Assembly: GCA_963744835.1 (NCBI GenBank)
Contig: CAVUVB010000005.1
Coordinates: 61,437 to 125,436 of the forward strand
Direction of reading: 5' to 3'
Source of the DNA: an uncultured Actinomycetota bacterium
Lineage (GTDB): Bacteria > Actinomycetota > Actinomycetes > Mycobacteriales > Mycobacteriaceae
Length of the DNA stretch: 64,000 nt
Each line of letters starts with the position of its first letter. Position 1 is the stretch's first letter. This document shows, one piece after another, positions 13,554 to 63,621 of this stretch. The notes below the pieces were generated by a model. The model was not told where the DNA came from, ran no database searches, and saw only the letters and a program-made list of their open reading frames with translations. The position numbers and the translations under genes were made by a program.

Positions 13554-13612
13554 CAGAATATTGCTCACTGAACCGTATAACAGCCTTGCAGAAAAGTGGA
13601 AACCCCATTCTC
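13554..13612. promoter_or_regulatory. Degenerate triple GAGAAT-N3-ATTCTC-type operator array (22-bp period)
   Basis: CAGAAT-ATT-GCTCAC (13554), TATAAC-AGC-CTTGCA (13576), GGAAAC-CCC-ATTCTC (13598) in a divergent promoter. Confidence 0.45.
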
Positions 13613-13651
13613 ACTGCGGGCGCACGGCGACCCTGCATTAGGTTGGCGACT

Positions 13652-13945
13652 ATGGCGGTCACCGTGTTACTCGAACTCAGGTTCAAACCCGACGAGGTCC
13701 CCGCGGGGCGCGAACTCATGGGCCGGGCGCTGCAGGACACCCGAGCATTCGACGGGAACTTGCGAACCGACGTGCTCGTCGACGAGGACGACGAAACGCA
13801 CTGGATCATCTACGAGCTTTGGGATTCGGTCGACCACGATGAGGCCTACCGCAGGTTTCGCGCCGGCGAAGGCAAGCTGACGCAGCTGCCTCCGCTGCTG
13901 GCCGCACCCCCGGTCAAGACCAGGTACTCGACGACCGATGTATAA
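13652..13945 (+). CDS. Antibiotic biosynthesis monooxygenase (ABM)-family protein, probably leaderless
   Basis: TRAFDG...IYELWDS..H.AY motif; TAGGTT -10 hexamer at 13639-13644, 7 nt before the ATG. Confidence 0.8.
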   Translation: MAVTVLLELRFKPDEVPAGRELMGRALQDTRAFDGNLRTDVLVDEDDETHWIIYELWDSVDHDEAYRRFRAGEGKLTQLPPLLAAPPVKTRYSTTDV

Positions 13946-13951
13946 GAGGGC

Positions 13952-14941
13952 CTAGCTCAGCGCAGTGATGACTTCGCGTTCGAACAGCTCGATGCCGGAA
14001 CGGTCGTAGGCGGCCTCCGGGAAGTAACAGATGACATACTCGCAGCCCAAGCCGCGCAGTTTTTGCAGCCGCTCGATCACTTGTTCCGTTGTCCCGGTAG
14101 CTGAATCCGGTCCGCTGCCGCTGGCGATCATCGCATCTGCCGCCGCTTCCGGGACATAGCCGATCATCCGGTCCCGGATGCGCTGCAGCCGGTCTTTGAC
14201 ATCGGCCTCCGAGGTGCCGAGGGTTGCGTTGATGTTGACCGAGCGCACGATCGCGTCGAAGTCGGTACCCACGTCGCGGCAATGCCCGGCAAGCACTTCG
14301 GACTTGTGTACAAAGCCCTCCGATTCGGAAGTGAAGTTCGTGTACTGTGCGTACTTCGCGGCGATGCGCAAGGTCACCTTCTCGCCGCCGCCAGCGATCC
14401 ACAGCGGGATCCCGCTGTCCTGCAGAGGCTTCGGGGCCACGATCGCTCCGTCAACCTGGTAATGCTTGCCGTCCAAACTGACCCTGCCGTCGCCCCAGGC
14501 GGCGCGCATGATCTGTACACCCTCGTCGAGTCGCCCGAGCCGCACGCCAGCCGATGGGAAGCCGTAACCGTAAGCGCGCCACTCGTGTTCGTACCAGCCG
14601 CCACCGATGCCCATCTGGATGCGGCCGCCCGAGATAATGTCGGCGGTGGCTGCGACTTTGGCCAGGTAAACCGGATTGCGATAACTCATCGCCGTGCACA
14701 TCTGGCCCAGCTTGATCCGCGACGTCGTCGCCGCATAGGCAGACATCAGTGACCACGCCTCGTGGGTGGCTTCGGCGGTCGGCATCGGAACGGTGTGGAA
14801 ATGGTCGTACACCCACAACGAGTCCCACGCGCCGCCATCGGCGTGGGCGGCCAGGTCCCGCATCACCGCCCAGTGCTCAGCCGGGTCGATCCCGACCAGA
14901 TCCATACGCCAACCCTGGGGAATGAAGAGTCCGAATCGCAT
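13952..14941 (-). CDS. LLM-class F420-dependent oxidoreductase
   Basis: MRFGLFIPQGW, SLWVYDHFH, RNPVYLAK, IAGGGEKVTLRIAAKYA. Confidence 0.88.
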   Translation of the reverse strand: MRFGLFIPQGWRMDLVGIDPAEHWAVMRDLAAHADGGAWDSLWVYDHFHTVPMPTAEATHEAWSLMSAYAATTSRIKLGQMCTAMSYRNPVYLAKVAATADIISGGRIQMGIGGGWYEHEWRAYGYGFPSAGVRLGRLDEGVQIMRAAWGDGRVSLDGKHYQVDGAIVAPKPLQDSGIPLWIAGGGEKVTLRIAAKYAQYTNFTSESEGFVHKSEVLAGHCRDVGTDFDAIVRSVNINATLGTSEADVKDRLQRIRDRMIGYVPEAAADAMIASGSGPDSATGTTEQVIERLQKLRGLGCEYVICYFPEAAYDRSGIELFEREVITALS

Positions 14942-14952
14942 AGCTTCGGACT

Positions 14953-28907: not shown

Positions 28908-29537
28908 TCACCCGTCGATCCGCATCATGTCGAAGAACTTGCCCACGAACACCGGCGGGTAAGCACCCACCCCGGCCCCGGTTATCCACGGGGCAGCCGC
29001 GTCGGGATGTTCGATCCATTCCCGTGCCCGGTCCTCGTCGTCGAGCTCCTGCAGAATCATCACTTCCTGCCCGTCGTCGAAAGCCTGGAAAATCCAGGTC
29101 TTTCGCACACCCGCCGCAGTGAATCTGCCCATCGCCCTGCGGACTTCCTCGGTCAACACAGACACGTCGTCGACCGACGCGATGGCCGCTATCACCACGC
29201 CAGGAGCCTCGGGGTTCGACGGTGGTGACGGCTCAAACCGCTTGACGATCTCGCCGGCGAAGACCGCCGGAATGTCCTCGACGCCAACCGCGTCGAACCA
29301 GTCGAAGAAGACCCGCGACCGCAGCAGTTCCCTGATCGGCTCCCGGCTGCGCACGACGATGGTCACCAACACCCGGCCATAGTCATGGGTCGAGGTGTAG
29401 ACCAGCACCCTCTGCGCGCCGATGCCGGCGAGTTCTTTTTTCCGGCGTTGAAGCAGCGGCCACACCCGTTCCGGCTTGGGCACGCGATAGTCCGAGGTGA
29501 TGACTATCGAATGCGAACGAGGCTCTGTGGTGCTCAC
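28908..29537 (-). CDS. Conserved protein with an internal duplication (resembles the C-terminal part of Mtb Rv0852 'FadD16')
   Basis: GTG at 29537 overlaps the ligase stop (GTGA); two similar halves ending ...GVEDIPAVFAGE and ...GVGAYPPVFVGK. Confidence 0.75.
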   Translation of the reverse strand: MSTTEPRSHSIVITSDYRVPKPERVWPLLQRRKKELAGIGAQRVLVYTSTHDYGRVLVTIVVRSREPIRELLRSRVFFDWFDAVGVEDIPAVFAGEIVKRFEPSPPSNPEAPGVVIAAIASVDDVSVLTEEVRRAMGRFTAAGVRKTWIFQAFDDGQEVMILQELDDEDRAREWIEHPDAAAPWITGAGVGAYPPVFVGKFFDMMRIDG

Positions 29538-32165: not shown

Positions 32166-32185
32166 GAAATCCTCCTTTGCATCTT

Positions 32186-32204
32186 GTGAGAATCCTATTC
32201 TCAC
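32186..32204. promoter_or_regulatory. Perfect operator palindrome GTGAGAAT-CCT-ATTCTCAC
   Basis: 8-bp perfect arms ~20 nt upstream of the amidohydrolase start; same motif as other promoters in this region. Confidence 0.8.
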
Positions 32205-32212
32205 TCAGACGG

Positions 32213-44369: not shown

Positions 44370-44550
44370 GATAAGAAAATTCTCTTCTTTGGAGAAGGTT
44401 CGGTACGGAACGTAGCGGGCTGATCGCTGCACGTCCATGCAGGTCATGTGTCGCGGGCGGACGACCAAGACGTGTGCCCAGGTAACTGGGTGAGCAGGGG
44501 CCAAAGTGACGGCTACTAAGGCTGCAGCCGGGGGTGATAATGTGATTCTC
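44370..44550. promoter_or_regulatory. GAGAAT-N3-ATTCTC-type sites at both ends of a divergent promoter
   Basis: GATAAG-AAA-ATTCTC (44370), half-site GAGAAG (44392, +22), GATAAT-GTG-ATTCTC (44536). Confidence 0.7.
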
Positions 44551-48393: not shown

Positions 48394-49743
48394 CTATCCG
48401 CCGCCTTCCGTCGACGGGATCCCCGGCGCCGGAGCAGCGGGCCCGGGCAGCGGAGCGCTCGGCGGCGGAGCAGCGGGCCCCGGTAGCGGGGCGCTGAACT
48501 CGGGCGGCGCCGCAGCAGGCCCCGGTGCAGGACCGGGCAGCGGAACGCTGAACACCGGAGCGGGCGCCGGCGCAAGACCGGGCGGCGGCGCAGCTTGCGG
48601 CGGAGGCGCAGCTTGCGGCGGAGGGCCGGGCAGCGGCGGATTCACGCCCTGATGCATGGGATCGAGTGTGTAGTTCAGGTAAGGCGGGTCACCGGGTGCC
48701 GGTGGACTAGTGGCCCCCAGCTGCCCCCAGTGCGTTCCCAAGAAGAGTCCTTGCTTGAGGCGCGGGATCGTGATGTCGAGCTCCGCAAAAACGTTGAAAT
48801 AGTCGCCGCGAACTGCTCGATCGACGAAATTTTGCGTGAACGGGAAGACCGCCGCCCCCGAGAGGGCCGCGTCGAGATCCGGTCCGACGTCGGCCAGCGC
48901 GCGGATCGTCGGCTCCAGGTTTTTCAGATTCTTGACCAGGTCGGCCTGGCTGTCATTGATAAGCCTCGTAGTGGTATTGCTGAAGACCCCAAGTCTGTCC
49001 AGGGCCTCCGTCAGGCGTGGCCGCTCTTTGATCAGCACCTCCAACGCCGGGGGGACCTTGCGGAGCGCCTCGGTAAGGACGTCGTGTTGTCCGGCGAAGG
49101 TGGTGGCAAGCTGGTTCAGCGCCCGGATGGAGGCGACGAGGTTGTCGCGCTGTTCGTCGAGTATGCCCACGAACTTGTCCAAGCGGGTCAGCAGATCCCG
49201 AACGGCGCCCGCCCGCCCGGACAGGGCGGCGTTGAAATTGTGGACGATCTCGCCGAACTGCCCCAGGCCTCCGCCGTTGACGACCACCGATAGCGACGAA
49301 AGGGTCTGCTCCGTCGACGGATACGTTGACGCCCGGTTCAGCGGAATGGTGGCGCCCGGTTGCAGTCGCCCCATCCCCGGCTGACCGAGCGGCGGATTGA
49401 GCTCCAAGTGCATCGAGCCGAGCAAGCTCGTCTGACCGACGCTGGCCACCGCGTTGGCCGGGACGACGACATCGCGCTTGACCGAGATTTCGACGTTGGC
49501 GTGCCACCCCTTCACCGTCATCGGGCCGACACTGCCGACAATGACGTCGTCGATCATTACGGGCGAATTCGACTCCAGCGTACCGACATTCGCGATCTCA
49601 ACGTGGTAGGTGTTGGCAGCCGCGCCGGTCTTCGGGCCAGGCAATGGTAGTGAGTTCAAACCGTGGAAGGCGCATCCTGACGCGCTCAGCATGACGCAGC
49701 AGCCAGTGGCGAGCACCCGCCGAACGGCAACCCGGGCGGTCAT
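48394..49743 (-). CDS. MCE-family lipoprotein (MceE)
   Basis: Lipobox LSASGC; NSPVMIDDVIVG, QTSLLGS; Pro-rich tail. Confidence 0.9.
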   Translation of the reverse strand: MTARVAVRRVLATGCCVMLSASGCAFHGLNSLPLPGPKTGAAANTYHVEIANVGTLESNSPVMIDDVIVGSVGPMTVKGWHANVEISVKRDVVVPANAVASVGQTSLLGSMHLELNPPLGQPGMGRLQPGATIPLNRASTYPSTEQTLSSLSVVVNGGGLGQFGEIVHNFNAALSGRAGAVRDLLTRLDKFVGILDEQRDNLVASIRALNQLATTFAGQHDVLTEALRKVPPALEVLIKERPRLTEALDRLGVFSNTTTRLINDSQADLVKNLKNLEPTIRALADVGPDLDAALSGAAVFPFTQNFVDRAVRGDYFNVFAELDITIPRLKQGLFLGTHWGQLGATSPPAPGDPPYLNYTLDPMHQGVNPPLPGPPPQAAPPPQAAPPPGLAPAPAPVFSVPLPGPAPGPAAAPPEFSAPLPGPAAPPPSAPLPGPAAPAPGIPSTEGGG

Positions 49744-51164
49744 GGCTGCGGCCTTTCGGCTGGCAGGGGCCCCGGCAAAGGTGGTGGCGGTGGTGGTGGC
49801 GACTCGTTCGGCACCGTGGGCGCCGGTGGCTGCGGCATCGCCGCTCCCGGTATCCGCGGGAGCGGTACCGACGGGGCCGGGCCGGGCACAATCGAGTCAC
49901 CATTCACGCCGGCATACGCAGACACCGCCGGCGGAATCTCGGGCGGTCCGGGCTTGGGGCCTTCACCACCGGGCGCCAGGCGCGGCTCGGTGTAGATGAT
50001 GTTTTCCGGGCGGGCCGACGGCATCAGGAATGGGTTGATGGGGAACGGAATCTCGTTGAAGTTCATCAGCCGCAACCCGGGGCCCAGAAACAGCGAACAC
50101 AACTTGCCCGTTTCGACCGCGGTGACGTTCTCCATGGGGTTGATATTCGAGCAGCCAGGAATCGGCAACGGAATCAGCGCACCACTGTAGGTGGCATTCG
50201 CGAAGTTCATGACCCCGAACCCGCCGTCGATGGTTCCGGTGTCCGGGTTGTAGTCGTTCATGAAGTTAGCGATCGACGTTGGCGCGAGGTGCAGAATGTT
50301 CTCCAGAGCCATGTGCTTGTCGACGAGCACCTGGGTGACGTTGGCCAACCGCGCAATCTGCTCGCTGGTCGGGTCACGGGTTTCCGCGATGAATCGCTGA
50401 ACTTCGCCGACCGCCGTGGACAGATTGGTCACCGCCGCGTCCAAGTCGGATTTGCTGTCGTTGACCACGCTGGTGAGTGTGGCTAGCCGGTTGTTGAACT
50501 GCACAAGCTGGACGTGGCTGTCCCGCAGCGCGGTGACGAAGGTCTGCAGATTCTTGATGATGTCGACGATGTTGCCGCTGCCGTTGGCGAGGATCCGGCC
50601 CACCCCGGACAGTTGGGCCAACGTTTGATGCAGTTTCTCGCCGTTGCCCTGCCCCAGTGCGTTGGCGGCGCTGTCGATGAATCGGCCGATCGACGTCCCC
50701 GAAACGCCGCTTTTGGGCCCTAAATCCGTTGCCAGCCGCATCAATTGGGTTTTGACCTCGTCCCACTCGACAGGTACAGCGGTGCGTTCGACCGGTATCG
50801 TCGCGCCGTCGGGCATGACGGGACCGCTGTCCCGGTAGGCGGGTGTGAGCTGGACGTAGCGGGCAGCCACCAGGTTCTGTGCGACGATCACCGCTTTCGC
50901 GTCCGCCGGAATGGGCACGTCGTGGTCGACGTGCAAGATCATCTTGGCCCGCGTGCCCACTGGTTGGATGGCGTTGATCGTGCCGACCTTGACCCCAGAG
51001 ACGCGCACCTCGTCCCCCGGATAGATCGCGGTGGTGGTAGTGAAGTACGCGGTGATGGTCTTGGGGCGAAAGAACGTGTTGCGGACCAGCACAGCCCCGC
51101 CGGCAACGACGAGAACCGCCAACGCGATTGCGAGCCAGACCGCCAGCTTGTTGCGCGGGATCAT
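49740..51164 (-). CDS. MCE-family protein (MceD)
   Basis: IYPGDEVRVSGVKVG, LVAARYVQL, VPVEWDE. Confidence 0.9.
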   Translation of the reverse strand: MIPRNKLAVWLAIALAVLVVAGGAVLVRNTFFRPKTITAYFTTTTAIYPGDEVRVSGVKVGTINAIQPVGTRAKMILHVDHDVPIPADAKAVIVAQNLVAARYVQLTPAYRDSGPVMPDGATIPVERTAVPVEWDEVKTQLMRLATDLGPKSGVSGTSIGRFIDSAANALGQGNGEKLHQTLAQLSGVGRILANGSGNIVDIIKNLQTFVTALRDSHVQLVQFNNRLATLTSVVNDSKSDLDAAVTNLSTAVGEVQRFIAETRDPTSEQIARLANVTQVLVDKHMALENILHLAPTSIANFMNDYNPDTGTIDGGFGVMNFANATYSGALIPLPIPGCSNINPMENVTAVETGKLCSLFLGPGLRLMNFNEIPFPINPFLMPSARPENIIYTEPRLAPGGEGPKPGPPEIPPAVSAYAGVNGDSIVPGPAPSVPLPRIPGAAMPQPPAPTVPNESPPPPPPPLPGPLPAERPQP

Positions 51165-52279
51165 TGCGGTCCCCCGATCCGTCCGCCCAACGTACAACCA
51201 GGGCACTCCGGAATGCCGTTGTACGGCCAGGGGACCAGCGACCGCGGCACGGTCGACGGGAAGCCGGGACCGCGAGCTGTGTCAAAGGTGCGGAACCCGA
51301 AGAGGTACTCGAGGAACGGCGCGAAGAGGTTTGGTTGAGCCAGGTTCGGCACGAACGCTGAGTAGGAAAACATGCTGGAAACGGCCTCGCCCACCGTGAT
51401 CTCAAATTTCGCGAGACCAGGCAGCGCTTTGGAGAGGTTGTCGCGGTTCTTCTCCAGCATCGCGGTCACCGAATTCAGCTTTTCCAGCGTCGGCGCCAAC
51501 TTGCTCTCGTTGTCATGTACCACTCCTGAGAGCTGCTGGGCCACTGTGGAAGTCGCGGCCAGCAATTCGACGATCTCCTGCCGGCGTTCTGCCAGAACTT
51601 GGAGCAGGTCATCGGAGTTGAGAATCAGCTTGTTTACTTGCTGGCTGCGTTCGGACAGGATTCCGGTGACATCGCTGGCGCTTTTCAGCAGCTGGCTCAG
51701 TGATTGATTGCGGCTGTTGAGGGTTCGCGACAGCCGGGTCAGCCCGTCAAAGGCTGGGCCCAATTGCGGCGCGATCTGGTTCAGCGTCGCCGACAACGTG
51801 TCCAGCGAGTGGTTCAGCGACCCGGTGTTGGTCCCGGCAGTGTTCGTGGTGAGGTCGCTCACCGCGTCGGTCAACGAGTACGGCGACGACGTGCGCGACA
51901 CCGGGATCACGTCCATCGGGTGCATCATGCCGCCGCCGGCTGACTCCAAAGTCAACATCCGTGCGCCCAGCAGGGTACCGGTCCTGATGTGTGCGCTGGT
52001 GTCCGTCCCGAGCGGAATGTTGCCCTTGAGCGTGAAGGTCACCAGCGCGTTGCCGTTGCGTAACGCCACCTTCGAGACCGAGCCGACCTTGATACCCGAC
52101 ACCGTCACGTCGTTGCCCGGCGCGAGACCGCCGGCTTCAGAAAACAACGCCTGATACCTCACGGAAGTCGCCAGCGACAGCAGCCGGTCGGGCGACAAAC
52201 CAACCAGGATGAGAAGCACGATCAAGACAGCGCCGATGAATCCGGCCTTGATCAATCCAGCCCCGCGGTACTTAAGCAT
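51161..52279 (-). CDS. MCE-family protein (MceC)
   Basis: EAGGL.PGNDV.VSG.KVG, TLLG, SPYSL.DA. Confidence 0.9.
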   Translation of the reverse strand: MLKYRGAGLIKAGFIGAVLIVLLILVGLSPDRLLSLATSVRYQALFSEAGGLAPGNDVTVSGIKVGSVSKVALRNGNALVTFTLKGNIPLGTDTSAHIRTGTLLGARMLTLESAGGGMMHPMDVIPVSRTSSPYSLTDAVSDLTTNTAGTNTGSLNHSLDTLSATLNQIAPQLGPAFDGLTRLSRTLNSRNQSLSQLLKSASDVTGILSERSQQVNKLILNSDDLLQVLAERRQEIVELLAATSTVAQQLSGVVHDNESKLAPTLEKLNSVTAMLEKNRDNLSKALPGLAKFEITVGEAVSSMFSYSAFVPNLAQPNLFAPFLEYLFGFRTFDTARGPGFPSTVPRSLVPWPYNGIPECPGCTLGGRIGGPQ

Positions 52280-53306
52280 GAGGTTCTGCGCACCTTCCCG
52301 CTTCTGACCTGAACAATGGGGCCACCACCGTCTTGCCGTTCAGATCCGTGCCGCGAAGCGTTAAATAGCAGACGTAGTACGGGATGGTGGCGCCCATGCT
52401 GCCCAGTCGCACGAGCTTTTTGTAGTTCTGTGGCATCCGCTGGATTGTGGCGTCAATGCGGTCCTTGTCCTGATCGAGCAGTGGCGCCAGCCGACTCAGC
52501 TGGTCGACCGTGCCGGCCAGCGGGCGCCGCGTATTGGACAGCAGATCCGCGAGTGACGCGGTTCCCTTGCTCAACGAATCGATCGCCGTACCGATGGTGT
52601 TGCGGTCGCCGGATAATCCGCTCACCAGCCGCTCGAGGCGATCGATTGCGCCGGAGAATTTGCCGCCGTCCTTGGAGAGAGTGGCCACCACCGTGTTCAA
52701 GTTGTCGATGAGTTGCCGGACCGTTTGGTCGTTGTCGGCCAGGGCATCTGAGAACGACGTCGTCCTTGAGAACAGCGACTGCAGGTTTCCGCCTTCGCCC
52801 TGGAAGATTTGAATGAGCGATGAAGTCAGCGCGTTCACGTCTTGCGGATTAAAGCCCTGGATAACGGGTTTCAGCCCGCCGAGCAGCAGATCGAGGTCAA
52901 GGGCCGGCGCCGTGCGCTCCACCGGAATCTGGCCCCCGGCCGCCAGCCGCTTGGTCGAGCCCGGGCCGTCGACTAGTTCCAGATAGCGATCACCGACCAG
53001 GTTGAGGTAGCGCACCGCTGCTCTGGTGCCGTTGGTGAGCACGATGTCGCGGTCGGTGTCGAACTTCACCACAACTTTCTTGTCTGGACGCAGCGAGACG
53101 CCGTTGACCGTGCCCACTCGGATCCCGGCGACTCGCACCGACTGCCCTGCCTTCAGACGCGAGGCGTCGTTGAACACTGCTGAATACCCGGTGGTCGAAC
53201 CGGTGCGGTACTGGCCGAAGATGAAGAACAGAAACGCAGTAAGCACCGCCATCACGACCCCGAAGATCGCGAACTTGACCAGCGTCGCGCGCAATGAGCC
53301 TCTCAT
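52272..53306 (-). CDS. MCE-family protein (MceB)
   Basis: VRVAGIRVG, RYLNLVGDRYLEL, PALDLD.LLGG. Confidence 0.9.
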   Translation of the reverse strand: MRGSLRATLVKFAIFGVVMAVLTAFLFFIFGQYRTGSTTGYSAVFNDASRLKAGQSVRVAGIRVGTVNGVSLRPDKKVVVKFDTDRDIVLTNGTRAAVRYLNLVGDRYLELVDGPGSTKRLAAGGQIPVERTAPALDLDLLLGGLKPVIQGFNPQDVNALTSSLIQIFQGEGGNLQSLFSRTTSFSDALADNDQTVRQLIDNLNTVVATLSKDGGKFSGAIDRLERLVSGLSGDRNTIGTAIDSLSKGTASLADLLSNTRRPLAGTVDQLSRLAPLLDQDKDRIDATIQRMPQNYKKLVRLGSMGATIPYYVCYLTLRGTDLNGKTVVAPLFRSEAGRCAEPHA

Positions 53307-54490
53307 CCGCGTTGTCCGACCTGAGCGGGGTTGCGCGGGGGCCCGGCAATCGGCCCGTAGAGCAACTGCTTGAGCCCGTCGAAGTTGATCAATAGCTGCT
53401 GGTTTCCGTACTTCCAGGGGTTGGCACCGGTGTCGGCGACGACATACTTCGCATACTTGCCGAAGGGCACCCTCGGAAGGTCTGTGCACTGCGGGCCACC
53501 CGTCGCCGCAACCCTGGGCAAGTCCGTCGGATATCGATAACGTTCAGTGCCCCATAGCAAAGTGGCCGAAATGTAGATGCCCGGTTCGAGCAGCGGCGGA
53601 GAATGTGACAATACGGCGAGTCCGCCGAAACCGCAGGTGAGGGCCTTGTTGTATTCGTTGGTGAGATCGGTGGTGGGCACCAGCAGATGCAGCACATCCG
53701 TCAACGCCTGCCGGTTGGTGCCGATGACATCGTTGCCGACATTGGCCAACCCGATCGCGCTGATCAGCAGCGCATCCAGATTGCGTTGCTCGTCGACGAT
53801 CGTCTGACTGATCCTCGTCGCATTGCTCACTGTCTTGAGCAGGTCCGGCGACGCATCCCCGTAGGCGCTGGCCACCGCGGGAAAAACCGCGAGGTCGTGG
53901 CTCAGCGCGGGCAGGCTTGGATCCAGCTTCGCCAGAAACGAATCCAAATCGCTGAGCGCCTGACCAATCTTTTCACCCCGACCGCTGAAGGCTTTCGCCA
54001 AAGCCCCTAGGGTCTCGTTGAGCTTGGCCGGGTCGAGCCTGTCCAATACGGACGTGAGTCGTTGGAAGACGGTGTTGATTTCGACCGTGACATGTTGGCT
54101 GTCGAGCACCTGGCCGGCACGCAGGGACTGCGCTGACGGTTGCGCCGGCGGTACCAGGTCGACGAACTTGGCGCCGAATACCGTTGGCGAGGTGATCTGA
54201 ACGAGCACGTTGGCCGGAATCAAGTGCATATTCGAGGGATACATCGCTAAGTGAAGGATGGCTTGACCGTTCGGCCGCGATTCGATTGAGGCGACCCTGC
54301 CCACTTGCACGCCGCGCATCTCCACCTTGGCATTGGGGTTCATCACCAGACCGGCCCGCGGCGAAAGCACGGTTACCGGCGCGGTTTCGGTAAAGCTGCC
54401 CTGGAATAAGCCCACAGCGACGGCGACGATCGCGGCAATCACAGCCACGGTGGCCAGACCAGCCAGTGCGCGTATCCCAGCGTGTTGCAT
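53303..54490 (-). CDS. MCE-family protein (MceA)
   Basis: RAGLVM.P.AKV.MRGVQVG, TVFGAKFV, VEINTVF. Confidence 0.9.
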   Translation of the reverse strand: MQHAGIRALAGLATVAVIAAIVAVAVGLFQGSFTETAPVTVLSPRAGLVMNPNAKVEMRGVQVGRVASIESRPNGQAILHLAMYPSNMHLIPANVLVQITSPTVFGAKFVDLVPPAQPSAQSLRAGQVLDSQHVTVEINTVFQRLTSVLDRLDPAKLNETLGALAKAFSGRGEKIGQALSDLDSFLAKLDPSLPALSHDLAVFPAVASAYGDASPDLLKTVSNATRISQTIVDEQRNLDALLISAIGLANVGNDVIGTNRQALTDVLHLLVPTTDLTNEYNKALTCGFGGLAVLSHSPPLLEPGIYISATLLWGTERYRYPTDLPRVAATGGPQCTDLPRVPFGKYAKYVVADTGANPWKYGNQQLLINFDGLKQLLYGPIAGPPRNPAQVGQRG

Positions 54491-54511
54491 CGAGCTTTTC
54501 CTGTCCTGTCC

Positions 54512-55378
54512 CTATCCCGAGAGGTTGAAGTTTCCGTTGGAGCCGTAGATAGACAGCGAAACCAGCAGCGTCACCGATATCACGACGATCAGCGAGGTAC
54601 GGACCGCATTGCCCGTTGCGACCCCGACGCCCTCCGGTCCACCCGACGCGAAATACCCGTAGTACGTGTGGAGCAACAAGACGGCGAGCGCCATCAGGAC
54701 GGCCTGGAAAAACGACCACAACAAGTCGATCGGGTTCAGGAACGTGTCGAAGTAGTGGTTGTAAAGCCCCCCTGATTGGCCGAACAGCACAACAGTGGTG
54801 AACTGGCTGGCGAGGAACGACAGGATGACGGCGATGCTGTACAGCGGGGCGATCGCGAGCATCCCTGCCACAAGCCTTGTGCTGACCAGATACGAGATCG
54901 GCCGAATCGCCATCGCTTCCAACGCATCTATCTCTTCGCTGATCCGCATCGCGCCCAATTGCGCTGTGACGCCGGCACCGAACGTGGCCGCCAAGCCGAT
55001 CCCGGCGACCACCGGCGCCGCGATCCGGACGTTGATGAATGCCGCCAGGAATCCGGTCAGCGCTTCGATGCCGATGTTGCCCAGCGAGCTATAGCCTTGC
55101 ACCGCGAGCGTGCCGCCCGCAGCCAGCGTCAGGAAACCAACGATCACCACGGTTCCACCGATCATCGCCAACGTTCCTGCGCCCATGCTGATTTCGGCGA
55201 CCAGACGGATGACCTCCCGCCGGTAGTGCACGGTGGCGAAAGGTATGCCGGCGAGCGCCCGGCCGTAGAACAGGGTGTGGTCGCCGATCGAGTTCAAAAC
55301 ACCGACGGGTTTGCGCCACTGGCCGAGGACCCCAAATGTTCGCGGATAGGTCGCTCTTAGCGACTTCATCAACGTCAC
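54512..55378 (-). CDS. MlaE/YrbE permease (YrbEB)
   Basis: TAQLGAMRISEEIDALEAM, ASGGPEGVG. Confidence 0.9.
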   Translation of the reverse strand: MTLMKSLRATYPRTFGVLGQWRKPVGVLNSIGDHTLFYGRALAGIPFATVHYRREVIRLVAEISMGAGTLAMIGGTVVIVGFLTLAAGGTLAVQGYSSLGNIGIEALTGFLAAFINVRIAAPVVAGIGLAATFGAGVTAQLGAMRISEEIDALEAMAIRPISYLVSTRLVAGMLAIAPLYSIAVILSFLASQFTTVVLFGQSGGLYNHYFDTFLNPIDLLWSFFQAVLMALAVLLLHTYYGYFASGGPEGVGVATGNAVRTSLIVVISVTLLVSLSIYGSNGNFNLSG

Positions 55379-55394
55379 GGCATCTCCCCCACCA

Positions 55395-56204
55395 TCACTT
55401 GGTCGTGAACCGGATGCCGATCGCGGTAACAACCACGTTGATGACGAAGAGCGCCATGAACGCATACACCACAGTTTCGTTGACGGCATTGCCCACCGCC
55501 TTGGCTCCCCCGCCAGATATCGTCAATCCCCGATAGCACGCCACCAGGCCGGCGATCAGGCCGAATAACGCTGCCTTGACGCACGAAATGATCACCTCGG
55601 GCACGCCGGTCAGCAACGTGATCCCCGCAGCGAACGCGCCCGGGTTGACGTCCTGCACGAACACCGAGAAGACGTAGCCGCCGACGATCCCGATAATGAC
55701 AACCAGACTGTTGAGCAACAGCGCTACCAGACCGGCCGCGAGCATCCGGGGCGTCACCAACCGTTGGACGGGGTTGATGCCCAGCACCTCCATCGCGTCG
55801 ATCTCTTCGCGGATGGTGCGCGAGCCGAGGTCCGCACACATCGCCGTTGCCCCGGCGCCGGCCACGATCAGCACCGTTACCAGCGGGCCGACCTGGGTGA
55901 CTGCGCCGAACGCAGCACCCGCACCACTGAGATCCGCAGCGCCTAATTCGCGCAGCAGGATGTTGAGGATGAAGCTGACCAGAACCGTGAACGGGATGGC
56001 CACCAACAAGGTTGGAGCCAATGAAACGCGCGCGACGAACCACGCCTGTTCGAGAAACTCACGCCACTGGAACGGCCGGCGGAAGACAAACCTAATCGCG
56101 TCCGCCGCCATCGCGAACAGCCCCCCGATGGACTGCATCGCGCCGGATAAGCCACTCGGCAAGCTGATGCCCGTGGACCAGCGCTCCGCCCCCTTAGTCG
56201 CCAT
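55395..56204 (-). CDS. MlaE/YrbE permease (YrbEA)
   Basis: CADLGSRTIREEIDAMEVLGI, GGAKAVGNAVNETVV. Confidence 0.92.
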   Translation of the reverse strand: MATKGAERWSTGISLPSGLSGAMQSIGGLFAMAADAIRFVFRRPFQWREFLEQAWFVARVSLAPTLLVAIPFTVLVSFILNILLRELGAADLSGAGAAFGAVTQVGPLVTVLIVAGAGATAMCADLGSRTIREEIDAMEVLGINPVQRLVTPRMLAAGLVALLLNSLVVIIGIVGGYVFSVFVQDVNPGAFAAGITLLTGVPEVIISCVKAALFGLIAGLVACYRGLTISGGGAKAVGNAVNETVVYAFMALFVINVVVTAIGIRFTTK

Positions 56205-57693: not shown

Positions 57694-57897
57694 GATAATT
57701 TCATTCTCACCCAGGGCGAATCTTACATTCCGAGTACGAGAATTCAACCAAACGAAAGAAACGAGACTGCCATGCTCGGAACACCTCCGGACGTCCGGAA
57801 TTCCCGGCATCTTCGCAGGAAGAACGGGGTTTCTCGGCCGCCTTGCGAGCCGCCGTAACGTGAGAGTAAGGTTCTCATAATTGGAAAGGAGATTCTT
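57694..57897. promoter_or_regulatory. Cluster of GAGAAT-N3-ATTCTC-type sites in the CoA-transferase/SDR divergent promoter
   Basis: GATAAT-TTC-ATTCTC (57694), GCGAAT-CTT-ACATTC (57716), GAGAAT-TCA-ACCAAA (57738); GAGAGT-AAG-GTTCTC (57862), GGAAAG-GAG-ATTCTT (57883). Confidence 0.72.
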
Positions 57898-57930: not shown

Positions 57931-58632
57931 GTGACAACGGCCGTCGTCACCGGGGGTGGTTCCGGAATCGGCTTGGCCGTCGCTGAGCGACTCAGCAAGG
58001 ACGGCTACCAAGTCGCGACCGTCGATCTCAAGCCGTCCGAGACGGAATTTGCCTTCACCGCCGACGTGACCGATCGGTCGCAAGTCGACGCGGCCCTTTC
58101 GGCCATCCGTGATCAGCTGGGCTCGGTCACCGTCCTGGTCAACGCGGCCGGCCTGGACGGGTTCAAGCGGTTCACCCACATCGACTTCGAGGATTGGCAG
58201 CGGCTGATCGACGTCAACCTCAATGGGGTCTTCCATATGATCCAGGCGGTGCTGCCCGACATGCTGGCAGCCGGGTGGGGCCGGATCGTCAACATCTCCT
58301 CGTCGAGCACCCACTCCGGTGCCCCGTACATGTCGCACTACGTGGCAGCCAAGTCCGCCGTCAACGGGCTCACCAAGTCGCTGGCCCTCGAGTACGGGCC
58401 GAACGGCATCACAGTCAACGCCGTCCCACCGGGTTTCATCGACACCCCGATGCTGCGTAGCGCCGAGGAACGCGGCCACCTCGGCGACATCGAAAAGACC
58501 ATCGCGGCAACGCCAGTACGCCGGATCGGTAAGCCGGAAGACATCGCCGCGGCATGTGCCTTTCTGGTGTCCGAGGAAGCCGGTTACATCACCGGTCAGA
58601 TCTTGGGCGTCAACGGCGGCCGAAACACCTGA
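57931..58632 (+). CDS. SDR-family oxidoreductase
   Basis: TGGGSGIG, NAAG, YVAAK. Confidence 0.9.
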   Translation: MTTAVVTGGGSGIGLAVAERLSKDGYQVATVDLKPSETEFAFTADVTDRSQVDAALSAIRDQLGSVTVLVNAAGLDGFKRFTHIDFEDWQRLIDVNLNGVFHMIQAVLPDMLAAGWGRIVNISSSSTHSGAPYMSHYVAAKSAVNGLTKSLALEYGPNGITVNAVPPGFIDTPMLRSAEERGHLGDIEKTIAATPVRRIGKPEDIAAACAFLVSEEAGYITGQILGVNGGRNT

Positions 58633-58644
58633 AAGGACAATCGC

Positions 58645-59505
58645 TTGGGACGCGTTGAAGGCAAAGTCGCATTTGTCACCGGTGCGGCGCGTGGCCAGGG
58701 CCGCTCTCACGCCGTGCGGTTGGCCGAGGAAGGCGCCGACATCATCGCTGTCGACCTGTGCCGTGACATCGACACCGTCGGATACCCCATGGCCACACCG
58801 GAGGACCTCGACGAGACCGCCCGACTCATCGAGAAGACCGGGCAACGAGTAGTGATCGCGCAGGCCGACGTTCGTGATGGCGCACAATTGCGAACCGCAT
58901 TAGCGGAGGGCCTCGCCGAGTTCGGCAAGCTCGACATCGTGGTGGCCCAGGCCGGCATCGCCGGCATGAAGGGCCAGCCGCCGCTGCAGGCCTGGTGCGA
59001 CGTGATCAATACCAATCTGATCGGGACAATCAATGCGATTCAGGTTGCGCTGCCGCACCTTGGCGAGGGCGCGTCGATCATCGCCACCGGATCCACCGCC
59101 GCGCTGATGGACACCGCCAAGAAAGACAACCCCGGCGGCGACCCGGGCGGGATGGCCTATGTGCACTCCAAGCGGGCACTGTCGAACTACATGCACGACC
59201 TGGCCACCGAGCTGTCGGCTGTCGGGATTCGGGCCAACGTCGTTCACCCAACGAACACCAATACCGACATGCTGCAGAGCGAGCCGATGTACCGTTCGTT
59301 TCGGCCCGATCTGGAAAACCCGACTCGGGCTGACGCCGAGCCGGTTTTCGGCGTCCAGCAGGCGATGAACATTCCTTACGTCGAGCCCGAGGACATCAGC
59401 AATGCCGTGCTGTGGCTGGCCTCGGACGAGGCCAGGTATGTGACAGGTATGCAACTGCGCGTCGATGCCGGCGGATACCTCAAGTGGTACGACTACCGCA
59501 CGTAA
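58645..59505 (+). CDS. Mycofactocin-coupled SDR oxidoreductase
   Basis: TGAARGQGRSHAVRLAEEGADIIAVDLC signature; YVHSK. Confidence 0.88.
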   Translation: MGRVEGKVAFVTGAARGQGRSHAVRLAEEGADIIAVDLCRDIDTVGYPMATPEDLDETARLIEKTGQRVVIAQADVRDGAQLRTALAEGLAEFGKLDIVVAQAGIAGMKGQPPLQAWCDVINTNLIGTINAIQVALPHLGEGASIIATGSTAALMDTAKKDNPGGDPGGMAYVHSKRALSNYMHDLATELSAVGIRANVVHPTNTNTDMLQSEPMYRSFRPDLENPTRADAEPVFGVQQAMNIPYVEPEDISNAVLWLASDEARYVTGMQLRVDAGGYLKWYDYRT

Positions 59506-59514
59506 GGGAAAGTT

Positions 59515-59718
59515 GTGAAAGTTCGGGTTGATTCAGATCGCTGCCAGGGGCACACGCTGTGCTCGATGATCGCGCCGGATTCTTTCGTGCTTGACGATAT
59601 CGAAGGTCATTCGTCGGCAGTGTCGGAAGACGTTCCGCCCGACCAGGAAGACCTCGTCCGGGAAGCCGCCCAGTCCTGCCCGGAACAAGCCATCCTGATT
59701 ACGGAGTCAACACCGTGA
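59515..59718 (+). CDS. [3Fe-4S]-type ferredoxin
   Basis: CQGHTLC...CPEQAI (CxxHxxC(x)nCP); GTGA overlap with the P450. Confidence 0.9.
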   Translation: MKVRVDSDRCQGHTLCSMIAPDSFVLDDIEGHSSAVSEDVPPDQEDLVREAAQSCPEQAILITESTP

Positions 59719-61079
59719 GCGTCGACGAGACTGTGAGCGACAGCGATCGCAAGAAGAACCGGTATCACTTTGATCGGCACACTCCGGAGTACCGGGGCCA
59801 GTTCGAGAAGATCACCGAAGAGATGCACGAAAAGTGCCCGGTCGCCTGGACCGACACCTACGACGGTCACTGGGTCGCCGCCGGCAGCCAGGCGGTGTTC
59901 GAGCTGGCTCGCTGCCCGGTTGTCTCCAACGACCACGACCTCACGGGCGAGCGCCCGGCTTACCAGGGCATCTCGATCCCGAAGGCCAAGCGAGCCAGCG
60001 GTGTGCGCGGCGGCATCCTGGAAATGGATGACCCTGAGCACCGCACCTATCGCACCGTGCTCAACCCCTACCTGTCGCCGGCGGCGGTGAAGCGATGGGA
60101 ACCCTTCATCGACGACGTGACGCGGGCTTGCCTCGACGAGAAGATCGAACAGGGCCGGATCGACTTCGTCGACGACCTGGCCAACATCGTGCCGGCGGTG
60201 CTGACGCTGGCGATGCTGGGAATCCCACTGAAGAACTGGGCGATTTACAGCGAGCCGGTCCATGCCTCGGTATACACCCCCGAACACTCCCCGGACATCG
60301 ACCGTATCGTCGCCATGCATCGGCAGATGGGCCTGGATCTGCTGAACAACATGATCGAGATCAAGGAGAACCCGCGGCCGGGAATCGTCAACGCGCTCAT
60401 TCAGATGCGGATCGACGGCGAGCCCGCTCCCGACCTCGAGATCATGGGCAACCTCGGCCTGGTCATCGGCGGCGGCTTCGACACCACCACCGCGTTGACC
60501 GCTCACTCGATGGAATGGCTGTCCCAGCATCCCGATCAGCGCGAGCGGCTCAGCCGCGAGCGTGCCACCCTACTTGATCCCGTCACCGAGGAATTCCTGC
60601 GCTACTTCACCCCGGCGCCCGGCGATGGACGCACGTTCTCCGACGACGTCGAGATCGAGGGAACACACTTCAAAGAGGGCGAACGGCTGTGGATTTCGTG
60701 GGCAATGGCTAACCGGGACCCATCCGTGTTCACCGAGCCGAACAAGATCGTCATGGATCGTAAAGGCAACCGGCACTTCAGTTTCGGCCTCGGCGTGCAT
60801 CGCTGCATCGGGTCGAACGTGGCTCGTACGGTGTTCAAATCCATGCTTACCGCCGTGCTCGACCGGATGCCCGACTACCACTGCGATCCGGAAGGCACGG
60901 TCCACTACGAAACCATCGGTGTCATCCAGGGCATGCGCAACCTTCCGGCCACCTTCACCCCCGGCCGCAGCCTGGGTGCTGGTCTGGACGAGACCCTCGA
61001 CAGGCTGCAGCGAATCTGCGACGAGCAAGAACTGGCCAGGCCCATCACCGAACGCAAAGAAGCGGCCAAGATCGACTGA
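59715..61079 (+). CDS. Cytochrome P450 (tentatively CYP188-like)
   Basis: GGGFDTT I-helix, EEFLR, FGLGVHRCIG heme motif. Confidence 0.92.
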   Translation: MSVDETVSDSDRKKNRYHFDRHTPEYRGQFEKITEEMHEKCPVAWTDTYDGHWVAAGSQAVFELARCPVVSNDHDLTGERPAYQGISIPKAKRASGVRGGILEMDDPEHRTYRTVLNPYLSPAAVKRWEPFIDDVTRACLDEKIEQGRIDFVDDLANIVPAVLTLAMLGIPLKNWAIYSEPVHASVYTPEHSPDIDRIVAMHRQMGLDLLNNMIEIKENPRPGIVNALIQMRIDGEPAPDLEIMGNLGLVIGGGFDTTTALTAHSMEWLSQHPDQRERLSRERATLLDPVTEEFLRYFTPAPGDGRTFSDDVEIEGTHFKEGERLWISWAMANRDPSVFTEPNKIVMDRKGNRHFSFGLGVHRCIGSNVARTVFKSMLTAVLDRMPDYHCDPEGTVHYETIGVIQGMRNLPATFTPGRSLGAGLDETLDRLQRICDEQELARPITERKEAAKID

Positions 61080-61098
61080 GTGGGGCTTACTGAGCTCC

Positions 61099-61160
61099 CG
61101 CGAGCAGACGTAAAATCGCCTAAACGAGCCTGCTTTTGGGCGATTCTGCGTCTGCTGGCG
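61099..61160. repeat. Mycobacterial REP-like palindromic element between convergent genes (possible bidirectional terminator)
   Basis: CGCGAGCAGACGTAAAATCGCC...GGCGATTCTGCGTCTGCTGGCG long imperfect inverted repeat. Confidence 0.8.
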
Positions 61161-61168
61161 CCAATAGG

Positions 61169-62347
61169 TCAGCCCGTGGGTAGTCCGAGCACCCGCTGCG
61201 CGATGATGTTGCGCTGGATCTCGGAGGTGCCGCCCGCGATCGTGCCCGAGAAGCTGCGGGCATAGCGCTCAAACCAGCTGCCGAAGTAGTGGTCCAGGTT
61301 CATCGGTGCGTAGCGGCCCGTCAATGCGGGGTGCACGAGACCCTCGGATCCCGCGGCGTGCAAGGCATGTTCGCATGCTTGCCGTTCGGCTTCCGAACCG
61401 AGCAACTTCAGCACCGACAGGGCGGGCACATCCTCTTCTCCGCGGGCCGCCCGGGCCAGGGCCACCGAGCCGAGCAGGCGAAGCGCAGAAAAGTCCATCA
61501 GCGTGGTGGCGTATTGGTCACGTTCCAGTGCGTTGGTGGGATCGAAGTCGGCGAGAACGTTGTCCAGCCGATCGGCGAAACCCAACCACATCATCGTGCG
61601 TTCGTGGCCCAGCGATCCATTGGCGACTCGCCATCCCTGGTTCAGCGGCCCGACAAGGTTTTCCGCCGGTACTCGCACGTCGGTGAAAAAGACCTCGTTG
61701 AAGTCCAGGTCATCCTGCCCGCAGATGGATGGGAACGGCCGGCGCACCACGCCGGGGGTGTCGGTGGGAATCAGTAACACGCTGATGCCCTTGTGCTTTG
61801 GCGCATCCGGATCGGTGCGCACGAAAGTCAGCAGCACATCGGCGTCATGGGCCCCCGACGTCCACACCTTCTGGCCGTTGACCACAAAATCGTCGCCATC
61901 ACGGACCGCCTTGGTACGCAACGACGCCAGATCCGAACCCGCACTGGGCTCACTCATGCCCAACGACGCGGTGATCTCGGCCCGCAAGATGGGCACCGCC
62001 CAACGTTGTTTCTGCTCCTCAGAGCCGAACGAAATGAGCGACGCGGCAATGATATTCACGCCCTGAGGGTTGAAGCTGTGATAGATCCGCCGCCGGCACA
62101 GCTCTTCCAGGTAGACGTACTGCTGCAAGACGGTGGCGTTGCGGCCGCCGAACTCGGGCGGCTGGGTGGGCAGCAGCCAGCCGTTGTCGAACAACAGCCG
62201 TTGCCAGCGGCGGGCCCACGCCGGCATGTGCGACACCGACCGCGGCCGCTCCAAAGCTTCAGCGGCGGTGGCCGGCACATGCTTGTCGAGAAAGGCCACA
62301 AACTCTGCGCGGAATGCCTCGACGTCGGGATCAAAGGTGAGCTGCAC
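61169..62347 (-). CDS. Acyl-CoA dehydrogenase (catalytic-type subunit)
   Basis: GMSEPSAGSDLASL, NGQKVWTS, FNEVFF, L.HER, TIAGGTSEIQRNIIA. Confidence 0.92.
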   Translation of the reverse strand: MQLTFDPDVEAFRAEFVAFLDKHVPATAAEALERPRSVSHMPAWARRWQRLLFDNGWLLPTQPPEFGGRNATVLQQYVYLEELCRRRIYHSFNPQGVNIIAASLISFGSEEQKQRWAVPILRAEITASLGMSEPSAGSDLASLRTKAVRDGDDFVVNGQKVWTSGAHDADVLLTFVRTDPDAPKHKGISVLLIPTDTPGVVRRPFPSICGQDDLDFNEVFFTDVRVPAENLVGPLNQGWRVANGSLGHERTMMWLGFADRLDNVLADFDPTNALERDQYATTLMDFSALRLLGSVALARAARGEEDVPALSVLKLLGSEAERQACEHALHAAGSEGLVHPALTGRYAPMNLDHYFGSWFERYARSFSGTIAGGTSEIQRNIIAQRVLGLPTG

Positions 62348-63341
62348 GGTATTCCTCGGTGATCATTGCCCGGTGCTCAGCGGCCCCGCCGAGCATCAGC
62401 TCGCCGGCCTTGGCCCGCTTTAGTGCGAATTGCACATCGTTCTCCCAGGTGAAGCCCATCGCGCCGAACAGCTGCAGGCCGTGGCGAAAGACCAGCGACT
62501 GGCATTCGCCCGCAGCTGCTTTCGCCATGGCGGCGGCCAGCCGCCGACGCGGGTCGTCCTCGGCGATCGTCAACGCCGCGTAATAGCCCAGCGCCCGGGC
62601 CCGCTCCACGGCGACGTGCATGTCGGCGGCTTTGTGCTGGACGGCCTGAAACGAGCCGATGGGCACCCCGAATTGGTGGCGGCTGCGCACATGGTCGAGA
62701 ACCAAGTCCAGGATGCGTTGGCAGGCACCGACCATCGTCATCGCCATACCCATCAGCGCGATGTGACGCGCCCGCTCGGCATCGACACTGACCCGGGCGG
62801 TGTCGGGCACCCGGACGCCGTCGAACGTCAGGTCTGCGACATGCAACACCGGGTCGAACACCGAGCTGCGTCGCCTGGATAGCTGCCCCGCCACCTCGTC
62901 GGCGCTGAGGATGAAGACCGCGGCGTCGGTCACCACCGCCAACCGCTGGGCACGGTCACCGTCCAGCACATGCTTCCCGGTGCCGTCCAGCACCCACTCC
63001 TCGCCGTCACGGCGCGCCGTCACTCCGGTGTAGACGGCGGTTCCGGAGGCCTGCGGGTCGAACCGATCCGCGGCCAACGGAGCGAACTGGCTCATCGTCG
63101 CCAAGAACGGGGTGGGATCGGTCGCGCGGCCCAGCTCCTCCAGCACGATGGCCAGCTCGACGGCGGTCTCCGGGTCGCTCATCTCGGTCCAGCCGTGCTC
63201 CACGTAGGCCTTCCAGACCGGGGTCGGGTCCACTTCGTCTTCGACAACACTTCGGACCAGAGTCGGTGGGCATTGCTTGCCAACAGCGTCGCGCACCGTT
63301 TCCTGCCAAAGCCGCTGATCAGCGTCGAATTCCAACAGCAT
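62331..63341 (-). CDS. Acyl-CoA dehydrogenase (short partner subunit of a probable alpha2beta2 pair)
   Basis: RHQFGVPIGSFQAVQH, QLFGAMGFTWE; overlaps its partner gene. Confidence 0.88.
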   Translation of the reverse strand: MLLEFDADQRLWQETVRDAVGKQCPPTLVRSVVEDEVDPTPVWKAYVEHGWTEMSDPETAVELAIVLEELGRATDPTPFLATMSQFAPLAADRFDPQASGTAVYTGVTARRDGEEWVLDGTGKHVLDGDRAQRLAVVTDAAVFILSADEVAGQLSRRRSSVFDPVLHVADLTFDGVRVPDTARVSVDAERARHIALMGMAMTMVGACQRILDLVLDHVRSRHQFGVPIGSFQAVQHKAADMHVAVERARALGYYAALTIAEDDPRRRLAAAMAKAAAGECQSLVFRHGLQLFGAMGFTWENDVQFALKRAKAGELMLGGAAEHRAMITEEYRAAHL

Positions 63342-63375
63342 CCCGGCCAGCTCCTTCGATCAGTCAACGTGCTGT

Positions 63376-63621
63376 GAGAATAGTATTCTCTTATTAGCAC
63401 AGTAACAATCTCGTCAGGTGCTTTCACCAGCAAGAGCCCGTTGAGGTCGCCGAAGTGGTCGGACGACTCTGGGACACCACGCTGAACGACGAGGGCGCCG
63501 ACTCGGATTTCACCTCGGCCATCAGACCCATCGAACGGGCTGCCGGGGTCACTGTGGGGCCGGTGGCGAGGACCCCCAAATTCGGAGAATGATATTATCG
63601 GTAAGCAAGAACAACACTTCG
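63376..63621. promoter_or_regulatory. GAGAAT-N3-ATTCTC sites in the fadE/amidohydrolase divergent promoter
   Basis: Perfect GAGAAT-AGT-ATTCTC (63376) with CACAGT-AAC-AATCTC (63398, +22); GAGAAT-GAT-ATTATC (63585) with a weak AAGAAC site (63607, +22). Confidence 0.78.

What the first reader, a model, noticed from the sequence alone, without database searches (positions are those of the whole stretch)
13554..63621. Candidate uncharacterised regulon: GAGAAT-N3-ATTCTC operators in 22-bp tandem arrays across the Mce/P450 catabolic region
Seen in sequence: the same AT-rich 15-mer sits in six separate upstream or divergent regions. Copies are at 32188 (GAGAATCCTATTCTC, perfect), 33819+33841, 44370+44392 and 44536, 57694+57716+57738 and 57862+57883, 63376 (perfect)+63398 and 63585+63607, and, more degenerately, 13554+13576+13598. 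Secondary copies usually lie exactly 22 bp from a strong copy (one pair is 21 bp), about two helical turns. The three TetR genes here each have a different palindrome of their own (15525, 35719, 39074). Inference: one regulator, probably encoded outside the window, binds cooperatively on one DNA face. It would coordinate CoA ligases, amidohydrolases, hydratase, Mam proteins, CoA-transferase (upstream of the mce operon), the SDR-ferredoxin-P450 operon, the ACAD pair and the distant thiolase/DUF35 pair. That would be a KstR-like regulon for a substrate other than cholesterol. The motif does not match the KstR, IdeR or Zur consensus as I recall them.
Basis: partly seen in the sequence, partly recalled or inferred. 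Interest (0 to 1): 0.8.

Follow-up and report, generated by a model that had tools for sequence, protein, structure and literature searches.

The report
Hidden TetR switch for lipid island
A 15-base DNA palindrome, often with a weaker copy 21-22 bases away, lies in front of about fifteen lipid-breakdown gene groups in this soil-type mycobacterium and is very likely the binding site of an unstudied repressor (probable counterpart of M. smegmatis MSMEG_4847) that would keep a large pathway, possibly for plant terpenoid acids, switched off.

Summary
The motif is real: 6 perfect and 9 one-mismatch GAGAAT-N3-ATTCTC sites genome-wide, 10 of the 15 in one 110-kb island; shuffled intergenic DNA gives 0.6 against 12. 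Weak partners at 21/22 bp are real (36 of 92 anchors against 0-1 at control offsets), but they form pairs, not general triplets, and several listed copies match only 5-7 of 12. The likely regulator is a TetR gene 31 kb past the window. A box lies upstream of its orthologues in 77 of 80 mycobacterial loci and 19 of 20 further loci, whatever the neighbour gene; in five distant genomes it is the only perfect site. It is not KstR or Zur. Its positional orthologue MSMEG_4847 is highly expressed while the island stays near-silent on cholesterol. Several targets called amidohydrolases resemble dinuclear oxygenases (PtmU3/DitZ family), a lead, not proof, towards terpenoid acids. Control of the mce operon is unproven. 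No binding was shown. The scan found this TetR/operator before on other DNA (e1-4217622). New member of a known kind.

The parts
13554..13612 (.). weak operator 13598 (9/12) plus 13554 (8/12); 13576 is not motif-like
   Evidence: a box is kept upstream of the DUF35 gene in 5 of 5 orthologues
11827..13519 (-). DUF35/ChsH2-like gene (13106-13519) and thiolase-like gene (11827-12972), likely target
   Evidence: Pfam; the pair lies inside the island in M. smegmatis (MSMEG_4777/4778)
32166..32202 (.). perfect operator 32188 with partner 32166; on the minus strand the core holds a TANNNT -10 word and the partner holds the Shine-Dalgarno
   Evidence: box-to-ATG offset 37 in this genome and 7 of 7 orthologues; MSMEG_4773 TSS 20 nt before its start
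28908..32165 (-). amidohydrolase-fold dinuclear-oxygenase-like gene (30974-32165) followed by a CoA ligase; both carry frameshifts in this assembly
33819..33855 (.). operator pair 33819+33841 between divergent CoA ligase (start 33761, -) and enoyl-CoA hydratase (start 33874, +)
44370..44406 (.). operator 44370 (10/12) with poor partner 44392, upstream of a 134-aa protein without Pfam hit (43948-44352, -)
44536..44550 (.). 11/12 site upstream of Mam-like genes (44583-46001, +); not conserved
   Evidence: 0 of 5 orthologues
57694..57752 (.). operator 57694 with partners 57716 and 57738, upstream of the family III CoA-transferase (56366-57571, -)
46675..56204 (-). yrbEAB-mceA-F operon; no operator directly upstream, control by read-through only inferred
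57862..57897 (.). operator pair 57862+57883 (21 bp; the partner holds the Shine-Dalgarno)
57931..61079 (+). SDR, mycofactocin-type SDR, small ferredoxin and P450 operon
61169..63341 (-). two-subunit-type acyl-CoA dehydrogenase pair
63376..63412 (.). perfect operator 63376 with partner 63398; on the minus strand TTGTTA-17-TACTAT spans the two boxes
   Evidence: a box is kept in 7 of 7 orthologues
63585..63621 (.). operator 63585 (11/12) with poor partner 63607, upstream of an amidohydrolase-fold pair, Rieske ferredoxin and reductase operon that starts at 63777 and runs out of the window; the regulator itself is outside the window (G000:C5:156787-157437)

Best explanation
The palindrome GAGAAT-N3-ATTCTC marks the promoter regions of a roughly 130-kb lipid-catabolic island and is very likely the operator of the TetR-family protein encoded at G000:C5:156787-157437 (P0001; positional counterpart of MSMEG_4847), which would repress these genes until a pathway metabolite releases it. 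Shown: the sites, their enrichment, their conservation, the 21/22-bp partners and the linkage to this TetR across lineages. Inferred: one dimer binds each box; two dimers sit side by side on one DNA face and cover either -35 plus -10, or -10 plus the first 20 transcribed bases. The repressor is made from its own promoter downstream of the boxes, so it stays abundant while the island is silent. The inducer is probably an acyl-CoA intermediate. The substrate is most likely a bulky branched or polycyclic carboxylic acid; I put plant di- or triterpenoid acids at about 0.4, sterol-like compounds other than cholesterol at 0.25, others at 0.35.
For: A box at -136 to -139 before 77 of 80 orthologous TetR loci, with a near-invariant +22 box and a variable spacer. 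A box of >=10/12 lies 83-140 bp upstream in 19 of 20 further loci at 40-91% identity, while the neighbour gene changes (ACAD alpha or beta, hydratase, CoA-transferase, none) and the SLRSFY helix stays. In 5 genomes of family f124 the only perfect site in the genome is the one before this TetR; in G380 the only <=1-mismatch site is. Class sample of 301: all 28 genomes with a >=58% orthologue have a perfect site; 22 of the 267 with no homologue do, at most 2 each. Phylum sample of 401: the 10 with such an orthologue have 3-10 sites, the other 391 have 0-2. Two rival island TetRs have no orthologue in G114 or G380. TetR fold, pLDDT 91. MSMEG_4847 reads 1136/527/1033 while operon leaders read 0-23. 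Its TSS is 35 nt before the start, where a conserved TANNNT-plus-ATG lies. Oxygenase lead.
Against: No binding or knock-out data. Genomes without the TetR also lack the island, so co-occurrence inside the genus cannot single out this regulator, and kin are not independent. G029 has 7 perfect sites and no TetR found; its contig breaks just behind the gene's place. G007 (61% complete) has 2. Six genomes with only 37-46% homologues have no perfect site. A TANNNT word in the box core does not generally point to the nearest gene (15 near only, 20 far only, 13 both, 27 neither, of 75). High MSMEG_4847 expression argues against strong autorepression. A 28% paralogue at C1:612553 has a similar site nearby and may own some outlying sites. 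Part of the M. smegmatis island (4835-4843) is listed as cholesterol-induced, at low levels. A DitZ-like paralogue without an operator scores higher against DitZ (E 2e-112) than the operator-linked one (7e-108). M. smegmatis DNA was not seen; orthology and promoter geometry are carried over from gene order and relatives.
Confidence: 0.82

Rival explanations
1. The strong boxes are operators, but the 21/22-bp copies are only promoter parts (-35, -10, Shine-Dalgarno) that happen to resemble the motif; a single dimer binds.
For: 14 of 56 partners with >=7/12 overlap a -35/-10 pair or an SD word. TTGTAA-17-TACTAT spans the pair at the TetR gene. Several partners match only 5-7 of 12.
Against: After dropping partners with SD-like or TTG/CAA words, 21 anchors still have a >=8/12 partner, against 0-1 at eight control offset pairs; matches are spread over both half-sites. 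The peak at 21/22 recurs in all ten other genomes profiled.
Confidence: 0.15
2. Another regulator (a TetR of the window, another island TetR or IclR, KstR or Zur) reads the motif, and P0001 is merely a member of the regulon.
For: The island holds several regulators. The KstR half-site (TAGAAC) and the Zur core look alike. The IclR and the TetR at C5:169797 were tested only against fetched stretches.
Against: KstR is present in 4 genomes with no perfect site and below cut-off in G114, which has 5. Spacers differ (KstR N2, Zur N1, here N3). TetRs 35036 and C5:139548 have no orthologue in G114 or G380 and no box upstream. The site follows P0001 through changing neighbourhoods.
Confidence: 0.06
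3. P0001 binds the motif but acts as an activator or dual regulator.
For: The orthologue is highly expressed although a perfect box lies upstream.
Against: Boxes overlap -10, -35 and ribosome-binding words. The regulator's mapped TSS lies about 66 nt downstream of the boxes, which explains its level. Targets are silent while it is abundant.
Confidence: 0.07
4. The regulon handles a sterol-like substrate or sterol by-product rather than terpenoid acids.
For: ChsH2-like/thiolase pair, two-subunit ACADs, an mce operon and a neighbouring KstD-like/meta-cleavage block. Slight rise of MSMEG_4835-4843 on cholesterol.
Against: Levels stay at or below about 15 on cholesterol, against 115 for MSMEG_5941. 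No KstR-type motif in the window. The regulon exists in G114, which lacks KstR.
Confidence: 0.25

Closest known systems
KstR (Rv3574/MSMEG_6042) cholesterol regulon
   Same: TetR repressor, palindrome beside its own gene overlapping promoter elements, dispersed regulon of lipid-degradation genes (PMC1995591 passages).
   Different: KstR motif is TnnAACnnGTTnnA (14 bp, N2). P0001 does not hit the KstR model. Here partners at 21/22 bp are common, the genes are not switched on by cholesterol, and the system is patchy in mycobacteria and present in lineages without KstR.
Rv0767c/MSMEG_5860 'motif X' regulon
   Same: TetR regulon with P450s and SDRs found by motif discovery (PMC6593523 passages and supplement 3 rows).
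   Different: Phytosterol-induced and has an M. tuberculosis orthologue. MSMEG_4847 is not in the table of M. tuberculosis TetR orthologues. The motif X logo could not be seen.
EthR, Mce3R and QacR multi-dimer operators
   Same: More than one TetR dimer per promoter (mentioned in PMC4482099; structural details recalled).
   Different: Here the second site is a separate degenerate copy two helical turns away; cooperativity is untested.
PtmU3 / DitZ / AibH1H2 / SfbO amidohydrolase-related dinuclear oxygenases (AROs)
   Same: Operator-linked 'amidohydrolases' hit them: PtmU3 E 5e-14, DitZ E 7e-108, SfbO E 7e-53; one lies beside a CoA ligase, one beside a Rieske ferredoxin.
   Different: Identity to DitZ is only about 41% (my count on the alignment), paralogues without operators score as well, and no substrate is known.
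Zur box of mycobacteria
   Same: AT-rich palindrome with a GA(A/T)AA(T/C) half-site (PMC7174638 passage).
   Different: One-base spacer, Fur-family protein, zinc-uptake targets.

Membership tests
TetR/AcrR family regulator (P0001) | N-terminal TetR helix-turn-helix | tested here: met
   PF00440 on all 120 listed relatives; PDB hits are TetRs
TetR/AcrR family regulator (P0001) | all-helical TetR fold with C-terminal ligand domain | tested here: met
   model pLDDT 91; best folds EthR2, YvdT, FadR
TetR/AcrR family regulator (P0001) | conserved palindrome next to its own gene | tested here: met
TetR/AcrR family regulator (P0001) | binds the palindrome as a dimer and is released by a ligand | not testable with these tools
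   needs EMSA and a ligand screen
KstR regulon | operator TnnAACnnGTTnnA | tested here: not met
   motif differs; no such word in the window
KstR regulon | regulator is a KstR orthologue (NF033703) | tested here: not met
   P0001 does not hit it; KstR occurs in genomes without the motif
KstR regulon | strong induction on cholesterol | tested here: not met
   published RNA-seq of positional orthologues stays low, with a slight rise
Zur regulon | GA(A/T)AA(T/C)-N1 inverted box and zinc-uptake targets | tested here: not met
   spacer N3, lipid-catabolic targets
IdeR regulon | 19-bp IdeR box | not tested
ARO dinuclear oxygenases (target genes) | N-terminal D-x-H and C-terminal D-x-P-H-x-D/E | tested here: met
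   window 30974 (DNH, DWPHPE) and C5:148091 (DDH, DYPHSD)
ARO dinuclear oxygenases (target genes) | same C-terminal motif in the Rieske-linked copy C5:126609 | tested here: not met
   reads DYPHWT despite E 7e-53 to SfbO
ARO dinuclear oxygenases (target genes) | O2-dependent C-H hydroxylation | not testable with these tools
   needs an enzyme assay

The most novel reading that the evidence does not exclude
The operator defines a widespread, undescribed actinobacterial pathway for plant terpenoid (resin-type) acids: an orphan Mce importer, orphan P450s (CYP150/188/190-like), Rieske and PtmU3/DitZ-like dinuclear oxygenases acting on CoA-tethered substrates, and a thiolase/DUF35 retro-aldolase, all released by a terpenoyl-CoA from a TetR that binds as side-by-side dimer pairs.
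Probability: 0.3. Interest if true: 0.8.

Novelty: new member of a known kind. Interest (0 to 1): 0.58.

Why it matters
Most environmental mycobacteria carry this island, whose mce operon and P450s have no known natural substrate and are silent in laboratory media. One deletion (MSMEG_4847) should switch it on, and one operator reporter gives a screen for the inducer, so the orphan-substrate question becomes directly testable. It adds a large lipid regulon beside KstR, found in non-tuberculous mycobacteria and four other family groups, with no M. tuberculosis orthologue in the published table.

Tried and rejected
General triple arrays: no excess at 43/44 bp. Box core always being the -10 of the nearest gene: rejected (rough gene calls). 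21-bp spacing as an assembly error: rejected. The sigma-70 consensus scan found nothing in 55500-64000. KstR and Zur as binders: rejected. Window TetR 35036 and TetR C5:139548 as binders: unlikely. Five genomes with 1-2 sites had no P0001 homologue, so those sites look like background. DitZ orthology: not supported, an unlinked paralogue scores higher. MmGI-1 of M. massiliense (PMC4263727 passages) gave no link. Literature: no paper held MSMEG_4831/4847/4825, MMAR_4752, MAP0712c or MSMEG_4837/4840/4773/4846, or six spellings of the motif; some searches gave listings only. RegPrecise, CollecTF, subscription papers and figure logos could not be seen. No solved structure of an orthologue. No complex prediction or read mapping was run.
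Full report
Observation. All quoted sites are present. The genome (G000, 4.66 Mb, 78% complete, many frameshifts; window = C5:61437-125436) holds 6 perfect and 9 one-mismatch copies of GAGAAT-N3-ATTCTC. The median for 60 permuted half-site palindromes is 1. Ten of the 15 lie in C5:93-204 kb. Intergenic DNA holds 12 sites at <=1 mismatch against 0.6 in 30 shuffles.

Spacing. Among this genome's 15 anchors the best partner offset is 22 (z 4.3); pooled over 76 anchors from ten other genomes it is 22 (z 5.9) then 21 (z 3.1), with nothing at 43/44. Of 92 anchors, 36 have a >=8/12 partner at 21/22, against 0-1 at eight control offset pairs; 21 remain after removing partners with SD-like or TTG/CAA words. 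These anchors include orthologous repeats, so they are not independent. In a further 6 anchors from four distant genomes, 2 had such a partner. Pairs are the rule. The 57694 triplet is conserved in 6 of 6 orthologous regions, but its outer boxes also hold likely -10/-35 words.

Conservation at the targets (matrix score >=6 upstream of the orthologue). DUF35 5 of 5; amidohydrolase 30974 6 of 6; CoA ligase 5 of 6; SDR 6 of 7; ACAD beta 7 of 7; amidohydrolase 63777 6 of 6; 134-aa protein 4 of 5; CoA-transferase 2 of 7 (an aldehyde dehydrogenase is inserted there in M. smegmatis); Mam-like gene 0 of 5; yrbEA 1 of 5 (weak). So direct control of mce and Mam genes is not shown.

The regulator. A TetR gene at C5:156787-157437 (P0001) has a perfect box at -138 with a +22 partner, and another box downstream. 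In 80 named mycobacterial loci the box is at -136 to -139 in 77; one locus is cut short and two are degenerate. In 20 further loci from six families a box of >=10/12 lies upstream in 19 (14 perfect), with changing neighbour genes. In nine genomes of family f124 (61-71% identity) a perfect box precedes the gene, and in five it is the only perfect site. Genus sample: 28 of 36 genomes have the orthologue and 3-10 perfect sites; of the other 8, six have none, G007 has 2 and G029 has 7 with a contig break at the gene's place. Phylum and class samples agree. The protein searches scored only part of the candidates per genome in the large samples, so weak homologues may be missed. Rival regulators fail. 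The model is a TetR fold with an unusually long first helix, residues 9-44.

Link to a model organism (by gene order only). MSMEG_4772-4873 follows the island's order, with matching lengths (PMC4881515, supplement Table S1 rows). MSMEG_4847 lies divergent from a hydratase, as P0001 orthologues do in L093 and L094. MMAR_4752 and MAP_0712c are probable counterparts (TetR lists of PMC4482099 supplement 1; ferredoxin/P450 table of PMC6237146). None is in that paper's table of M. tuberculosis TetR orthologues. MSMEG_4847 reads 1136/527/1033 on androstenedione/cholesterol/glycerol; the first genes behind predicted boxes read 0-23. Its main TSS is 35 nt before the start (PMC6448022 supplement rows), where 76 of 78 distinct orthologous leaders have a TANNNT-like word and an ATG. 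The repressor thus seems to be made from a promoter downstream of the boxes. MSMEG_4773 has its TSS 20 nt before the start; with the box-to-ATG offset of 37 seen in 8 of 8 sequences, this puts the TSS 7 nt behind the TANNNT in the box core and the partner box over the ribosome-binding site. At the TetR/ACAD and 63376 pairs a TTG-type -35 and a -10 lie 17 bp apart across the two boxes. This geometry is not general.

Substrate. The conserved core across lineages is CoA ligases, two-subunit ACADs, hydratase, thiolases, SDRs, a ferredoxin reductase and amidohydrolase-fold proteins. Two of the latter carry both motifs of amidohydrolase-related dinuclear oxygenases (PMC13154177 passages) and hit PtmU3, a hydroxylase of CoA-bound diterpenoids (PMC7782822 passages), and DitZ. 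A P450 behind a weak box pair hits CYP150A6 (E 2e-151); CYP150A5 oxidises beta-ionone. Some Mycobacterium strains degrade resin acids (PMC6891630 passages). Against: an unlinked paralogue is as close to DitZ, and the Rieske and CYP188-like proteins have no close solved relative. Terpenoid acids are therefore a lead at about 0.4.

Comparison and novelty. It works like KstR (PMC1995591 passages) but fails KstR and Zur membership. Ten paper searches found no description; motif databases, figure logos, unread supplements and subscription journals may hold one. I read parts 2-3 of 6 of PMC4482099 and only passages or supplement rows of the other ten papers.

Verdict. A real, conserved TetR regulon with paired operators; new member of a known kind; interest 0.58.

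Noticed in passing
G000:C5:156752-156790 (L002): A 12-codon reading frame starts at the TetR gene's mapped TSS position and its stop overlaps the TetR start (GTGA) in 76 of 78 leaders; in family f124 the same -10 is followed by an in-frame leaderless start. An in-frame ATG at -66 could give a longer isoform.
   Followed up: partly
window 57899-57934: An 11-codon frame behind the Shine-Dalgarno in box 57883 ends on the SDR start (GTGA); a coupled short frame of varying length is seen in 5 of 6 orthologues.
   Followed up: partly
G000:C1:612276-618855 (L004): A 28% paralogue of P0001 with a similar recognition helix, two <=1-mismatch boxes nearby and its own ACAD/P450 cluster: a possible sister regulon.
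   Followed up: partly
G000:C5:280180 (L166): A weak box pair upstream of an acyltransferase, CoA ligase and wax ester/TAG synthase operon; conservation not tested.
   Followed up: no
G000:C6:787948, C6:1153584, C2:532869, C2:835555, C7:532703: Outlying boxes before hydratase/ACAD, phosphotransferase/SDR/ACAD, P450 and amidohydrolase-fold genes; a box next to the phosphotransferase is also seen in G011.
   Followed up: partly
window 39074-39101: A 28-bp palindrome (12-bp arms) upstream of TetR 38402, beside an AveC-like spirocyclase gene.
   Followed up: no
window 28908-37144 and elsewhere: Many island genes (CoA ligases, hydratase, P450, amidohydrolase) are frameshifted in this assembly, probably sequencing indels; not checked against reads.
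   Followed up: no
M. smegmatis MSMEG_4789-4791: IS1096 sits inside the orthologous mce operon of mc2 155.
   Followed up: no
L122:10280-12091 (G380): The most distant homologue (37%) is followed directly by an amidohydrolase-fold gene 39% identical to the DitZ-like target, suggesting an old TetR-oxygenase link.
   Followed up: partly
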